Below, in pieces: positions 55,473-61,272 of a DNA stretch of 64,000 nt. Under the pieces are notes generated by a model. The model did not search any database and was not told where the DNA came from. It worked only from the letters and a program-made list of their open reading frames with translations. Made by a program: the position numbers and the translations under genes. Source of the DNA: Paramecium tetraurelia (Eukaryota); the NCBI GenBank assembly GCA_000165425.1, contig CT867992.1, positions 1-64,000 of the forward strand. The letters run 5' to 3'. Every line of letters begins with the position of its first letter. Position 1 is the first letter of the stretch.

Positions 55473-55515
55473 AATTAATATATATATATATATAATTATA
55501 TAGATAATAGACTAT

Positions 55516-56587
55516 TCAACTCATCTTGATTGCAGCTAATTGTTCTTTCAAAGCAGCTAATTATAGTTGTAATTATAATAATTCAGGACTTGTTCTCATC
55601 GATACTTTAGGAGTATAAACTGGAGCAGGCATATTATTTCCATACATCATTTTTTTGAGCTTACGAAACCTATATGAATAAGATAATGGGGATAATTTAC
55701 ATTTTAGATACCTGTTTCATTCCAATCATTAATCATTTTTTGTCTTTCAATAGAATTTCTACGACTAGATTCTCTACTACTACTGCTTTTCTTTTTTTTG
55801 CTTTTCTTCTCCTTCTTTTTATTTTTCTTGGGACTCTTTCTAAACATCATAACAATGTCTTACTCAGTATTGACTTCTTTCTCCTTTTTCTCTCTATATT
55901 CTGGATGCTCTTCATACATTTGATTGAACAAACTCTTCTTAAATTTGGTGGATATCTTCTTTAGATGTAAATAATTGCATGCTCCACCTCTTAAAGTCAT
56001 TAATTTCTAATTCCATACCTTTAACATGTCCCATCAATATATTATTTGCATTTAGCACTGCTAAAATCTAATACAGGCGAATATTCCATCTGCAATGGTC
56101 TATTTTCATATGATAGATTCTAAAGAGCATTGAAGCAGGACTCTGCAAACAATTCAGATGTATATTTCACATACACATTTCCTACTAAATGATCACCAAT
56201 GTTTTCGCATACTATCAAATCCTCAATTTCACCAAACTCTGCTAACTTAACATAATTATCCACTTTTACTTTCAAAAATACATCTTCATAAAAGTTTTCG
56301 AATTTCTCCAATGCCTCCTCAATACCCGCTTAAGACACTGCATTTCCTGAAGCTATTGCCACTTCCATTGGAGAGTTTTAATACATATGCTGACCATTAT
56401 ATCACAATTCCTTACTTTAAATAAAATTGTCTAAGAGATTGGAGGGATGCTATGGATTCTTTAACATTTATTTTCATAACGACAGGCTCCAATTTTGATA
56501 TAAAATGAGCAATTCACCTAAAATTAGAGGTGTTAATCATACTTTGTCTTCTTCTGTTCCATACACTCTTTCCAGTCCGCCTGCCAT
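55516..56587 (-). CDS. U2AF1: U2 snRNP auxiliary factor small subunit (U2AF35)
   Basis: GTEEDKVNCSFYIKIGACRY, FENFYEDVF, VCENIGDHLVGNVYVKY, CKQY..GTCQRGGACNYLH. Several short introns. Last exon frame ambiguous. Confidence 0.93.
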
Positions 56588-56796
56588 TTAATAAATAATT
56601 ATATATTTATATTTTAGTAAGAGTGAACGCCAATTATAATATTTTCATAATTGTGTAAAAATATTTATAATAATATTAAGTGTCATTAATATTCAATATT
56701 TGTGATAATTGACTACCTTAAGTTAATAATAAAGTGAAATTTACGTTGACTTTATCAATAGATATAATATAATAATAAATAATTAAAAATTTGGAA

Positions 56797-58508
56797 ATGC
56801 AAGCCATCCATTTTCAAAATATCTAGCATAATTTCACGTATCTTAAAAATTTGAGACTAAAAAATCAATTACTCATTTTGATTAGCTTTTAGATTATTTT
56901 CATCGTGACTTTCCTTGTTTGTAGCAACTACATCCACACAACCTTTATTTAGCTATTTTTTGCTGAGTCCTCTCAATAAATTTACCTCAAGACCTCGAAT
57001 TCAATGCTTAAAACATAATTAAATGAATATAATTCATACTTCACTTCGTTGTTTCATACTAGTAAATATATATATTTATAATTAGATGGGCAAACACTGA
57101 TTTCATTCTTCTAACTTTACACATATCTCAGAAATAAAACATAGACACATCTTGATTCTCTAAATCCTAAGTTTGACATGAATTACGGAGGTATCAATGC
57201 CAAAATACCTAAATCAATTTAATCAAAAAGAATTGGTGCTTACAACACCACCATCTCCTGTCTATGTTATACCAACACAACTAAATTTCATCAACCTTAT
57301 ACACACGAAGAACTAATTAACATTAAAACTCAGGAATCGATGTAAAGTTTCGGCATGGTTATTTTCCAGGGTAAAACCACATTGTAATCGTTTCTCTATG
57401 GATATGTAAAAAGAGATAACATTTTAATGACCTATCCATGTTTACAAAGACACGATATTGCTAATTATATTCCTGAAAATAGAACTTGGTATATAGAAGC
57501 CAAAAGAAATTTTTAAGCTCACAAAGTTTTTGATAAATACAATTTTTCGATAACTTATCCCTATTTACGTAACTAAAAATTAAAATTAATTTAGTATTTA
57601 AGTCAACAAGCGTAGGGTTATCTATGGCGATACCATTTGTCGATAGGAATCTCTCTTTTATTGGAACTGGTGCCTTTGATTTGATTCCATCCAGCTTATT
57701 AAAAGAAGTCACTTAATAATTTGGCAGAGATTTCACTTCTATATTTCTTGCATCATTAGATGGAATATTGATTATGCACCCTTTCAATATCACCTTTGAT
57801 AAAATACCACTTTATTTCTACAATCAATCTATAACTGGGTTTGGCTTAGAAGATTGGTAAGGCTTGTCCGATCCTTTATTCAAATCAAATTGCCAGAATT
57901 AAACAACAACCATGGATTTTAAGTGTCTATATAACTCATTTTATAATTAAGACATGTTCGTAAGTTAATAAATATTGCATGAATTTAATATGTCTGTCAT
58001 AGTGTAAGTTATCTATTTATATTTTAGATTGGTTAGCAGTTCAGAATTTAATAAGTTTTCTGATGAATTCAATTCTAATTTGATCTCAAAATTATAGATT
58101 ACATTCTCAAATTCAATAATTGAATAAGCAAGTCTGTTTGTATTCCTGTGTTTTCTAATTTACTTTATGATTTCATATTTGTTCTATCCAATAGAATTAA
58201 TCATAAATGCAGCCATGAATTAAATTCAAAAGAAAAAGTACCAAAACAAAAATTTGAATACAATATTATAATCCCTATTAAGCGTCTAGATTTTAGACCT
58301 CTATAGATCATGCTAACATTTTAATAAATTATTTGAGAGGCTCTCCTTCAATAAAAATGAATAGTGTTAAAAAATTGAAAATCTATAATATCCCTAACAG
58401 ATAGAAGAAATTAAATTGTGTTGTTTTGTAGATCATAAGAAATTTAGAAAGCTAGATGTATTATTTCTTGTTAAAAAAATAGTTTAAATTACGAAATCAG
58501 TCAAATGA
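56797..58508 (+). CDS. Two-TM membrane protein with extracellular dCache_1-type sensory domain
   Basis: N-terminal TM (QLLILISFQIIFIVTFLV), YIPENRTWYIEA...TYPY...IGTGAFD, FLASLDGILIMHP, second TM (LFVFLCFLIYFMISYLFYPI), short cytoplasmic tail. Three introns, frame open throughout. Confidence 0.82.
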
Positions 58509-58642
58509 CAATTTTAATTTAGTGAAATCGTTTATCAAATAAGCCTATTTTAAACTACGACTCAAGTGAATTTTGATTACTATAACTTTTTTTTTTTTCA
58601 TATAGTTATATCATAAAAATTGATAAATAATAAAAGTATTTT

Positions 58643-60209
58643 TCAAATCCTCACTGCTTTTCCAACTTAAGAATCTGCTCTTTAATGATGTAACAATTTG
58701 AGATGTAAATTTTTGAATGATTAATTTTGCAGCATTGGATTCTCAACTGGTATACCTTATCTTTAGGTTGATTCTCCTCTTTCCCCTTTATCCTTTTTAA
58801 AAGCTTTCACTTATTGTTTAAAAGTGCATGTATTAAATGATTTATCATTCACTAACTCGTCTAAGCCTAAACTTGGTGTTCTCTTTGCGCTAGTATTCCC
58901 AATATTATTCACATAATTTTTCAATCTATCAAAGGCATCTATAAAAATAGTTATAACTCTTACTTTATCCATTCTATGAATCCAAGTTAATTGTTACTTT
59001 TGGTGCTTCATATTTACCCAAACCTAATTTACCCATAAAATTTGATAATTCGTCCTTTCTTTTATAGGGCTTAACATTGTCTTTGACTTCAACCGTAAAA
59101 TTCATTGTTTGTTATACTTTAACATTGAGATAAGTATTTTCTTTCTTTGTCTTTTGGCCTGAAGTCCCGATAAATTATGAAGAAGGACTTGCTTATATAA
59201 AACCAAATCTGGCATTTGGAGATTTGCCATTAGATAATTTGACATTGACTTGTGGAACTTATGAATTGAGATAGGTTCCTCCATTTTTACCACTTCCATT
59301 CTCAGTCAAAACCTCTTAATTGAATTTATTTGGAGTATTAAATTATTATAACAAAGTATCAAATGTTTTAGTCTTTGATTTTTGAGTTTAATCATTACTA
59401 ACCTTAGTATTAGAAGTGTTATTTGTTGGGTTCGAAGGGAGTTCTTATTGATTATATCTTTCTTTGAAAGGAGTTCTTCGATTGAATAAATCAGTTAGAT
59501 CTTCTAATGTAGCTGCACTCTTAAATTAATCTAACAATTCCATGTAATTGTTTGCCACTACCGGATGATCTGGAATGACGACTTCTTCTTTTTATACAAC
59601 AATATCTGAGTTCTTTACTCTGAGTTCTTAATTCTATAAATAATCTAATTTTTTTTGGGATTAGATTTCTTGTTTCGAAGGGTGTTAATCTAAATTAATT
59701 GTATCAGCAAATTTCAAGCTAAAATCATATTTAAAAGAAACAGCAGTTTAATTGATTGGTTCTTATTTATAAAGAGTTTCATTGAGTTACATTAATTATT
59801 CTGGATCTTCTTCTAATTTTACCTCCTATTAAGTTTATTCATTCTATTAATCAGAAATTCCTTAAGAAACTTATTGTTATAAAGTGACATCTTGTGTTTC
59901 GATTGGTTTAATCTCTACTTTATTTAATACAACCTAGTCTTCTTAAGGATTTAAGTTTTGCTTATTACTAATTTCTATTTTATTAATGTTTGTTTCAATT
60001 TTTATTGATTATTGTGGTGCTTCAGTGTAGCCTGCTTGTACAGCCATAGCTTTGAATGCGTCAAACTTATTTTTATATTTATCAATTAAATCTTTTGATG
60101 ATCTTGCCCAAGTGTTGAGAACTTTGGATTCTTAAGGTTGTTCTTATTAAAGAGAGGAGTCTTAGACACTTTATTCTTGAATTTCAGACGATTACTAATT
60201 ATCGGACAT
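58643..60209 (-). CDS. Hypothetical low-complexity (Q/E/S/T-rich) protein
   Basis: MSDNQQSSEIQEQ...LNTWARSSKDLIDKYKNKFDAFK..., a 25-nt intron near 58940-58964, ends QVGKAVRI*. Confidence 0.72.
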
Positions 60210-60308
60210 TTTATTATTAAATTTATTTTCTTAATTTTACAATATACATTATGATCTATTTAGATAACAAAATAATATTAAATTCGGATTATATATATAT
60301 ATTAATAA

Positions 60309-61272
60309 ATGGAAATTTATCGTATTCCTGAAGACTTGAGATTCGTAAATCAGATTGGTCAAACTCTTAGTGCAGAAGAGAAGTATTGATTAATGTAATG
60401 AAGGATCAAGTTAGAAATAGCTTTGATAAAGTTAGGCGAAACTTAGACATTTGATTAATTGCTATTTTGGGGAAGAATCGAAGGAACAGTTGCCAATTAT
60501 TATATTGCCATTGGGTTGAATTTCAAGAATAATTTTGAATTCCCTCACAAAACATTCTTCTACACTGCAAATTTAAAGGAATTCTAAAATTTACCACCCC
60601 TCAATCCAGAATACAAAGATTAAGTTGAAACTTTCAGACAGTTATTTTCAGGATAACCTGAAAAAATACTCATTAATATCACAGGTGAAGATGGAGATCA
60701 ACCACCTGCTGATTAACCTAATCCAGATGAACCTCAACAAGTTCTAAAAAATGATGATGACTCCGATGTTGAAATAAAACCACCTCCCAAGAATTTCTTG
60801 GAAGTGGATAGATTAGCCTATGTGGTCAATGCGATTGAATTCGAATGTGCACTTCTCCCTGTTGGTGCAGTCAGATTGACTCCTACTCATGAATTAAGGT
60901 ACTTAATTAACTATCTTTTTCAGATATAATGATTCATTCGAAGGACTCAATCTCTAAGAAGCATCAAAAATATCCAATTATCAGCATTTCAGAGCACCTC
61001 AGAGTCCCAACAAAAAGGCATTGATTGCATAAGACGATGCCCTTTTTCATTATGACTTCTTTGATTAATTGGATGACCATCCTGTAGGATAATGGAGTTT
61101 ACAAACTGATTCCTCCAAATATCAAGTACTCATTTCATATAAATTTAAGGTCACTGTACGTAATCTCTAATGGCCAGGCTTCTTGGGTTATCATAGAGCA
61201 GGAACTAGAATTTTTGGATATGCCTATTTTGGTGATGGTATTAAGAATGTAGATTTGGCATTTCAACTATGA
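60309..61272 (+). CDS. RSPH9: Radial spoke head protein 9
   Basis: GQTLSAEERIKL, FWGRIEGTVANYYIA, EVDRLAYVV, LLPVGA, VRNLQWPG, YFGDGIKNVDLAF. Three introns. Confidence 0.9.

What the first reader, a model, noticed from the sequence alone, without database searches (positions are those of the whole stretch)
56797..58508. Chemoreceptor-like TM-dCache-TM protein with an intact amino-acid-binding motif but no signalling output domain
Seen: an intact spliced gene with topology short N-tail, TM, large extracellular region, TM ending in YPI, then about 100 aa of cytoplasmic helices. The extracellular part contains Y-IPEN-R-T-WY (from 57466), a later TYPY, and D 30 residues after that last Y (57678-57680). 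Established: YxxxxRxWY...Y...D is the dCache_1 amino-acid-binding signature of bacterial chemoreceptors and alpha2delta subunits, and TM-Cache-TM-HAMP is the bacterial receptor layout. Inference: a stand-alone amino-acid sensor that must signal in trans, through a channel, cyclase or kinase partner. It is a candidate for ciliate chemoresponse to amino acids such as glutamate. The WY-to-Y spacer is longer than usual.
Basis: partly seen in the sequence, partly recalled or inferred. Interest (0 to 1): 0.72.

Follow-up and report, generated by a model that had tools for sequence, protein, structure and literature searches.

The report
Ciliate amino-acid receptor without output domain
This Paramecium gene encodes a bacterial-style membrane sensor with an intact amino-acid pocket but nothing inside the cell to pass the signal on; it is one of a large family of such genes and most likely works paired with a few longer partner receptors, an arrangement also seen in Asgard archaea, which would be an undescribed way for a eukaryotic cell to taste its surroundings.

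Summary
Confirmed and extended. The gene is real and transcribed. It has four introns and ends at 58569, not 58508 (557 aa). A model of its orthologue is a single dCache_1 domain (PctA Z 18, rmsd 2.9) between two transmembrane helices, followed by a HAMP-like segment and a short tail. The full Y-R-W-Y-D amino-acid motif is in register. There is no VWA insertion, against the published statement that all eukaryotic dCache_1 proteins have one. The genome holds at least 63 such output-less genes; 27 keep the full motif, the rest have altered pockets. The family aligns over its whole length with the output-less member of an Asgard archaeal receptor pair (dCache-HAMP plus dCache-HAMP-TPR-vWA), which this scan noted before on other DNA. 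Five long TM-HAMP-TPR-vWA homologues of the other member are in this genome. Best reading: many ligand-tuning subunits share a few transducer subunits. Ligand binding, pairing, location and role in chemoresponse are all inferred; none was shown. Nothing points to glutamate, or to a channel, cyclase or kinase partner. My literature searches found no paper on the family.

The parts
56797..58569 (+). Coding region, five exons, 557 aa, ciliate code (table 6)
   Evidence: orthologues P0068, P0002, P0003 are all 557 aa
57062..57085 (+). Intron 1 (24 nt, in frame)
   Evidence: left out of contig X4
57569..57594 (+). Intron 2 (26 nt), between Y248 and D278
   Evidence: left out of contig X4
58004..58027 (+). 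Intron 3 (24 nt, in frame)
   Evidence: left out of contig X4
58458..58482 (+).
   Evidence: restores gap-free match to orthologues; no read coverage
56869..56925 (+). TM1 (about residues 25-43) after a basic cytoplasmic N-tail; continues into the stalk helix
   Evidence: hydropathy; helix 21-109 in the model
56959..58064 (+). Single dCache_1 ectodomain (residues 55-398), distal and proximal modules, no VWA insertion
   Evidence: PctA 5ltx Z 18.0, rmsd 2.9, 237 of 243 residues aligned; Foldseek Mlp24 E 1.6e-10; modelled on the orthologue P0002
57466..57492 (+). Carboxylate half of the amino-acid motif, Y216-x4-R221-x-W223-Y224
   Evidence: aligns to the same motif of 6iop and 7k5n
57562..57564 (+). 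Y248, amino-group half of the motif (PctA Y144 position)
57678..57680 (+). D278, amino-group half of the motif (PctA D173 position)
58116..58178 (+). TM2 (about residues 416-436)
   Evidence: hydropathy
58179..58340 (+). HAMP-like segment (residues 437-490): helix starting at YPI, long connector, second helix
   Evidence: profile alignment to the Pfam-positive HAMP of the Asgard partner; helices to 454 and 472-490; no direct Pfam HAMP hit
58353..58394 (+). Family-wide tail motif K-x3-C-x2-IE-x2-QYP (residues 495-508), function unknown, candidate docking site
   Evidence: consensus of 36 sequences and genomic paralogues

Best explanation
The protein is the ligand-recognising ('tuning') subunit of a two-chain membrane receptor. 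An extracellular amino acid binds the distal dCache pocket (carboxylate on Y216/R221/W223, amino group on Y248/D278), shifts TM2 and changes the HAMP bundle. Because HAMP works as a two-chain bundle and this chain stops soon after it, the signal is passed through a partner chain: one of five long TM...TM-HAMP-TPR-vWA proteins in the same genome, whose TPR and vWA domains dock cytoplasmic proteins with no enzyme step in the receptor. At least 63 short subunits with varied pockets and five long ones would give a combinatorial chemoreceptor repertoire, descended from the same gene pair found side by side in Asgard archaea. Shown: gene, transcript, fold, motif, family size, whole-length homology to the Asgard short subunit, presence of long homologues. 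Inferred: amino-acid binding (about 0.7 on its own), pairing with the long proteins (about 0.55), surface location, role in behaviour.
For: Fold and motif. In PMC8915833 every selected bacterial and archaeal motif-bearing domain that bound a ligand bound amino acids, and D173A or D173N abolished binding. Motif kept in 8 of 8 sequences of this clade across Paramecium species while pairwise identity falls to 55% (P0001-P0007; own-genome paralogue L072). Repertoire: 63 genes, 53 keep Y/F-R-W, 27 the full motif, with clade-wise swaps at the Asp position (L 8, H 5, N 5, Q 4 and others); 63 of 63 are 441-593 aa and stop at most 174 residues after TM2. Asgard link: family profile versus Asgard short subunit 99.6%, E 8e-24, 459 columns from TM1 through HAMP, versus the long subunit 99.1%, E 4e-19; in reverse the short-subunit profile scores the ciliate proteins higher than the long-subunit profile does (96/74/68 versus 84/34/61 bits for the three standard-code members; 8 versus 0 of 63 Paramecium members listed). 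In 20 of 20 Asgard regions fetched a 885-957 aa and a 467-544 aa two-TM gene are adjacent (regions were chosen for having two hits); Pfam gives dCache-HAMP-TPR-vWA and dCache-HAMP in the two pairs scanned; the same pair is on a giant-virus bin contig. Long homologues in this genome: Asgard HAMP/TPR junction hits C30 at E 4.6e-10; a junction pattern gives 5 matches and 0 control; TPR and VWA by Pfam; C47 copy versus Asgard receptor 95.9%, E 5e-9.
Against: No physical pairing was shown. Short and long genes are not adjacent in this genome (nearest seen about 30 kb apart on C30). A Cache fold for the ectodomains of the long Paramecium proteins could not be shown (weak 16.6 bits against a shuffle maximum of 4.0 for one of three; single-sequence model pLDDT 35), and the C47 copy may have a much shorter ectodomain. 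The ciliate tail motif after HAMP has no clear counterpart in the Asgard short subunit, so it could carry its own output. This protein misses the Pfam dCache_1 cut-off (12.9 of 45 bits) and has Leu250 where 6iop and 7k5n have Asp two residues after the third Tyr (a ligand contact in bacterial structures, recalled), so affinity or ligand class may differ. On the distal module alone bacteria score as well as Asgard proteins (up to 76 bits), and the share of genomes with E <= 1e-12 is similar (8 of 301 Asgard, 37 of 1054 bacterial); no tree tested the origin. The function of the Asgard pair is itself only predicted. Expression is low (depth under 10 in three runs).
Confidence: 0.45

Rival explanations
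1. Homodimeric (or short-short heterodimeric) amino-acid receptor that signals by itself: HAMP changes expose the conserved C-x2-IE-x2-QYP tail to a soluble effector, and the long proteins have become independent.
For: The tail motif is conserved across the family and is an addition relative to the Asgard short subunit; 63 to 5 is a steep ratio; tandem duplicates of short genes only (C33, C57, C313, C402).
Against: No known effector-binding motif is detected in the tail; homologues of the long subunit are retained in three subfamilies, which fits continued joint function.
Confidence: 0.22
2. One reading: an auxiliary sensor that regulates a channel, the cyclase/K-channel fusion or a kinase in trans, like alpha2delta or CACHD1, and mediates attraction to glutamate.
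For: L-glutamate binds cilia, hyperpolarises the cell and raises cAMP within 30 ms (PMC8964087, passages); the profile also matches the motif-bearing region of CACHD1 (E 1.2e-6) and the model matches alpha2delta (Z 17.6, rmsd 4.1).
Against: No VWA domain, two TM helices and a HAMP, unlike alpha2delta/CACHD1; the whole-length relatives are the Asgard and giant-virus short subunits; the review names an NMDA-like candidate for the glutamate receptor; no evidence on location.
Confidence: 0.15
3. It senses or captures solutes in the food vacuole or secretory pathway (nutrient monitoring, uptake helper) rather than at the cell surface, or binds a ligand other than a free amino acid.
For: The same topology fits a luminal domain; 36 of 63 paralogues have altered pockets; Leu250 replaces a usual Asp; amine sensors evolved from this motif (PMC10589655, passages).
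Against: All five defining residues are intact in this clade; nothing positive points to an internal location.
Confidence: 0.13
4. A truncated or decaying receptor, or a gene-model artefact that lost its output exons.
For: The public model of this gene is wrong at both ends (476 aa, no TM1), so models here can mislead; reads do not reach the 3' end.
Against: Orthologues in three other species have the same 557-aa length and C-terminus; the next gene, on the opposite strand, ends about 70 bases downstream (its reads begin at 58656); all 63 paralogues and an intron-free member on a standard-code contig are equally short.
Confidence: 0.03

Closest known systems
Bacterial dCache_1AA chemoreceptors PctA/PctB/PctC (Pseudomonas aeruginosa), Mlp24/Mlp37 (Vibrio cholerae), and the Aeromonas diguanylate cyclase sensor 7K5N
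   Same: dCache_1 fold, all five motif residues in register, TM-dCache-TM-HAMP order
   Different: No MCP, kinase, cyclase or phosphodiesterase domain; W-to-Y spacer 25 instead of about 16; Leu at the Tyr+2 position; extra cysteines and N-glycosylation sequons; eukaryotic, intron-containing, 63-member family
alpha2delta subunits and CACHD1 (eukaryotic dCache_1AA proteins, PMC8915833)
   Same: dCache_1 with the amino-acid motif in a eukaryote; profile hit to CACHD1 718-865
   Different: Single contiguous dCache_1, no VWA insertion, no nested second dCache, two TM helices with HAMP. The paper states that all eukaryotic dCache_1 proteins carry the VWA insertion; its Dataset S3 lists only Litonotus among ciliates
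Asgard archaeal enzyme-free receptor pair (dCache-HAMP-TPR-vWA plus output-less dCache-HAMP); not in print by my searches, noted earlier in this scan
   Same: Whole-length homology to the short member including the long-connector HAMP; homologues of the long member's TM2-HAMP-TPR-vWA part in the same genome
   Different: Genes unlinked; short member expanded to at least 63 with the intact motif on the short chain, long members lack the motif and have unrecognisable ectodomains; added QYP tail; propeller and arginine decarboxylase partners not looked for here
Giant-virus 'Cache domain protein' A0A481Z124 (Mimivirus LCMiAC02, 565 aa)
   Same: Best whole-chain structural match: E 3.9e-17, TM 0.61 over 521 columns
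   Different: 14% identity; predicted structure only; function unknown
Insect odorant receptors with the Orco co-receptor (recalled, analogy only)
   Same: Many divergent tuning subunits sharing few conserved partners
   Different: Unrelated fold; those are ion channels; the logic is inferred here, not shown

Membership tests
dCache_1 (PF02743) | Stalk helix plus tandem distal and proximal PDC modules | tested here: met
   Model of the 86%-identical orthologue, pLDDT 74; PctA Z 18.0, rmsd 2.9, 237 aligned
dCache_1 (PF02743) | Pfam score over the gathering cut-off (45 bits) | tested here: not met
   12.9 bits for P0001; 32-39 for the sister clade; 71 and 52 bits for standard-code members P0056 and P0070. 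Membership rests on fold and on relatives
dCache_1AA amino-acid sensor | Y, R, W (carboxyl) and Y, D (amino) at PctA positions 121, 126, 128, 144, 173 | tested here: met
   Y216, R221, W223, Y248, D278 align to 6iop and 7k5n motif residues
dCache_1AA amino-acid sensor | 13-17 residues between the two motif halves (prokaryotes) | tested here: not met
   23 residues between Y224 and Y248; a loop insertion by alignment; the paper allows longer spacing in eukaryotes
dCache_1AA amino-acid sensor | Motif side chains meet in one pocket in 3D | tested here: inconclusive
dCache_1AA amino-acid sensor | Measured amino-acid binding | not testable with these tools
   needs thermal shift or ITC
alpha2delta / CACHD1 | VWA inserted in a dCache_1 domain | tested here: not met
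   No VWA by Pfam; contiguous alignment to PctA leaves no room
alpha2delta / CACHD1 | Two nested dCache_1 domains | tested here: not met
   One dCache_1, residues 55-398
Bacterial chemoreceptor / sensor kinase / cyclase | Cytoplasmic MCP, HisKA-HATPase, GGDEF/EAL or cyclase domain in the same chain | tested here: not met
   About 120 aa after TM2, no Pfam hit
HAMP (PF00672) | AS1 - connector - AS2 directly after TM2 | tested here: inconclusive
   No direct Pfam hit; profile alignment to the Asgard partner's HAMP, which scores 26.8 bits over a cut-off of 25 in one of two scanned; helical pattern fits, pLDDT 57-85
Short subunit of the Asgard-type dCache-HAMP / dCache-HAMP-TPR-vWA pair | Whole-length homology to the short subunit, ending after HAMP | tested here: met
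   99.6%, E 8e-24, 459 columns; reverse scores favour the short subunit
Short subunit of the Asgard-type pair | Long TM-dCache-TM-HAMP-TPR-vWA subunit present in the genome | tested here: inconclusive
   TM2-HAMP-TPR-vWA part found in 5 genes; Cache fold of their ectodomains not shown
Short subunit of the Asgard-type pair | Gene adjacent to the long subunit | tested here: not met
   Neighbours in the window are other genes; none of the five long loci lies beside a family locus found
Short subunit of the Asgard-type pair | Physical heterodimer | not tested
   no complex prediction was obtained

The most novel reading that the evidence does not exclude
Ciliates use an enzyme-free, two-chain chemoreceptor class inherited from (or shared with) Asgard archaea: dozens of VWA-free dCache-HAMP tuning subunits with diversified pockets pair with a few TPR-vWA transducers, and together form the main small-molecule chemoreceptor repertoire of Paramecium, a counterpart of GPCR and insect OR/Orco repertoires built on a prokaryotic fold.
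Probability: 0.3. Interest if true: 0.92.

Novelty: new variant of a known kind. Interest (0 to 1): 0.74.

Why it matters
Receptors for most Paramecium attractants are unidentified or rest on theses (review PMC8964087). This gives a defined, RNAi-tractable family of at least 63 candidates with predictable pockets, and five candidate shared partners whose silencing should remove many responses at once. It also contradicts the published view that every eukaryotic dCache_1 protein carries a VWA insertion dating from the last common ancestor, and offers a laboratory organism in which to test a receptor pair otherwise seen in Asgard archaea and giant-virus bins.

Tried and rejected
Pfam on single exons found nothing. 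Word-based searches for fused forms gave none at 1037-2960 aa and only close relatives at 192-1036 aa (candidate list saturated): weak negatives. The full-library profile search listed 56 proteins at E <= 0.001, none a long fused receptor; P0059 was a repeat-protein chance hit and was left out of alignment A2, as were fragments under 300 aa and P0012. Three of 52 'TG[FY]xxxDW' pattern hits and 8 of 20 fetched motif-pattern hits were chance and were dropped; one further hit with an in-frame stop was not fetched. Pfam VWA_2 loci (30 of 33 cut out, 49 of 118 frames scanned) showed no TPR-vWA receptor; the long receptors were found only with an Asgard query. Two of the 7 hits were ordinary TPR proteins. 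A single-sequence fold of a long receptor's ectodomain failed (pLDDT 35). No complex prediction was available, so dimer questions are open. No RNA holder was listed on record; contig X4 is RNA by guess, though it lacks three introns. The UniRef label 'Peptidase A1 domain-containing' for this gene has no support in any search. Gene ids of four family members were absent from the BBS pull-down tables of PMC3556005, which are too small to inform on location. Viral contigs hold no close relative of the short subunit by pattern scan. ESM Atlas neighbours were taken as leads only.

Full report
Gene. The window is the first 64 kb of contig C9 of a 72 Mb, 697-contig genome; the database protein encoded here is labelled Paramecium tetraurelia GSPATT00028469001. 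The gene starts at 56797. One assembled contig covering 56788-58320 lacks 57062-57085, 57569-57594 and 58004-58027. Three oligo-dT runs show low coverage over the gene (bin depths up to 9.5 from 33-42% of each run), first mates on the minus strand, which in most stranded libraries means plus-strand RNA. A fourth intron, 58458-58482, is not covered by reads, but removing it gives 557 aa with a gap-free match to the P. octaurelia protein (517 of 557; 24 of the last 30 columns against 5). The real stop is 58567-58569. The public model (476 aa) lacks TM1 and keeps intron 4.

Observation. Profiles of the family align these residues to the motif of Mlp24 (6iop) and 7K5N, with the extra length as a loop between WY and the third Tyr (best E 2.1e-16, PctA 3.2e-12). 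An AlphaFold model of the orthologue P0002 (478 of 557 identical; pLDDT 74) has a TM1-stalk helix, two PDC modules, a TM2 helix running into the cytoplasm and a further helix at 472-490. It matches PctA at Z 18.0, rmsd 2.9 over 237 of 243 residues and Mlp24 at E 1.6e-10. The window's own protein was not folded. Pfam dCache_1 gives only 12.9 bits, which probably explains why it was missed.

Against the literature. I read parts 1-4 of 5 of PMC8915833 (main text) and searched its supplements. It defines the motif, shows that D173A and D173N abolish binding in PctA, and states that in all eukaryotic dCache_1 proteins a VWA domain is inserted. Its eukaryote table has no Paramecium or Tetrahymena entry, only five Litonotus rows. 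This protein has no VWA. The exception is not unique: PMC4822843 (passages) mentions Cache domains in fungal and plant histidine kinases and a Naegleria cyclase, and the ESM Atlas lists chytrid clusters of similar length (leads only). Searches for the family, its gene ids or the pair found no paper on them (listings only, plus passages of PMC5847659). The library lacks most subscription papers, and ciliary proteome tables outside it could bear on location.

Family. A nine-codon pattern from the proximal module gave 52 matches against 1 control and a motif pattern gave 50 against 39. A spliced profile aligner, which recovered the three proven introns of this gene, confirmed 49 of the 52, 2 further loci from other searches and 12 of 20 fetched motif hits: 63 genes, a lower bound. 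Of the 63, 58 keep R, 53 keep Y/F-R-W and 27 keep all five residues; the Asp is replaced clade by clade. All are 441-593 aa and end within 174 residues of TM2 (unmodelled last introns could shift single ends). Members occur in P. bursaria and, with the full motif and no introns, on a gene-dense standard-code eukaryotic contig, L091, where the next gene ends 5 bases after the stop; that this is another ciliate is my inference. All share a tail motif K-x3-C-x2-IE-x2-QYP, looser in the standard-code members.

The partner. Earlier notes of this scan described an Asgard gene pair, so I tested it. The family profile hits 54 of 301 genomes of that phylum; four matches run to profile positions 465-478, the best at 100 bits. 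In 20 of 20 regions fetched, chosen for holding two hits, a long and a short two-TM gene are adjacent; the two pairs scanned are dCache-HAMP-TPR-vWA and dCache-HAMP. Profile comparison gives 99.6% over 459 columns with the short subunit, including both HAMP helices and the long connector, and 99.1% with the long one; reverse scores favour the short one. As a control, 1,054 genomes of four bacterial phyla gave 37 with E <= 1e-12, up to 76 bits, but none of the listed matches passes position 301 (4-5 candidates scored per genome). The Asgard share at that threshold is 8 of 301, so the difference is in match length, not frequency. A giant-virus bin contig carries the same pair, and a 565-aa Mimivirus Cache protein is the best whole-chain structural match (TM 0.61).

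Long subunits in this genome. The Asgard HAMP/TPR junction hits C30 at E 4.6e-10 and six weaker places. Five are TM2-HAMP-TPR-vWA genes in three subfamilies (C30; C47; C17, C125, C672; C125 was seen only at the junction), and a junction pattern returns exactly these five with no control hit. Pfam confirms TPR and VWA for C30 and VWA for C17 and C672; the C47 copy matches the Asgard receptor at 95.9%. Their ectodomains show no Y-x4-R-x-W motif in the frames read, and I could not show that they are Cache domains. A 1,282-aa Tetrahymena TPR protein hit by a bacterial dCache query in the paper's Dataset S4 (E 2e-6) hints that long ciliate forms keep one.

Mechanism. Most likely (0.45): amino acid binds the distal pocket of the short chain, TM2 moves, and a mixed HAMP bundle relays the change to the TPR-vWA end of a long chain, which docks cytoplasmic proteins. 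Pockets vary on the many short chains and the motif is lost on the few long ones, the split expected of tuning and transducer subunits. HAMP needing two chains is established knowledge, recalled; pairing is inferred from the Asgard gene order and was not tested. Leu250, where the bacterial structures have Asp, and the long spacer are reasons for caution on the ligand.

Verdict. A real, expressed member of the dCache_1AA kind by fold and motif, not an alpha2delta/CACHD1 and not a classical chemoreceptor. New variant of a known kind; interest 0.74. The two-chain repertoire model is the novel case (0.3) and is directly testable by RNAi.

Noticed in passing
G000:C30:142.5-146k(-), C47:407.7-410k(+), C17, C125, C672 (L303, L304, L307-L309): Five TM...TM-HAMP-TPR-vWA genes homologous to the Asgard long receptor; the C17 and C672 copies have a long low-complexity insert within the TPR region and a degenerate vWA metal site (D-x-S-x-E); the C47 copy may have a short ectodomain.
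   Followed up: partly
L099, L102, L104, L105 (C47, C213, C347, C358): A four-gene clade keeps Y-R-W-Y but has His at both amino-group positions; other clades have Asn, Gln, Leu, Met or Gly at the Asp position, suggesting other ligand classes.
   Followed up: no
L310:937-5221: A contig from a giant-virus bin carries the short (504 aa) and long (895 aa, motif N-half present) subunits side by side.
   Followed up: partly
L281:5240-6682(-), L276:3-833(-), L279, L280: Neighbours of the Asgard pair are beta-propeller proteins (weak hits to BBS2_Mid, WDR19 and IFT80 propeller models, all under cut-off except one CGLA hit) and a PLP-dependent Orn/Arg decarboxylase; a Paramecium counterpart of the propeller was not looked for.
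   Followed up: no
L277:2066-3697(-): One Asgard short subunit ends in zinc-ribbon/RING-like cysteine motifs after HAMP, showing the short chain can gain a tail.
   Followed up: no
ESM Atlas clusters: Chytrid clusters of 535-566 aa resemble this family and may be another eukaryotic lineage with VWA-free dCache-HAMP proteins.
   Followed up: no
window 55500-56588 (-) and 58643-60647 (-): The gene lies head to head, about 210 bases apart, with a U2AF35-like gene (by eye, not searched) and tail to tail with an uncharacterised gene; no linked signalling gene in the window near it.
   Followed up: no
L147-L225: Many short contigs in bacterial genome records carry eukaryote-like actin at 65-70% identity, probably contamination.
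   Followed up: no
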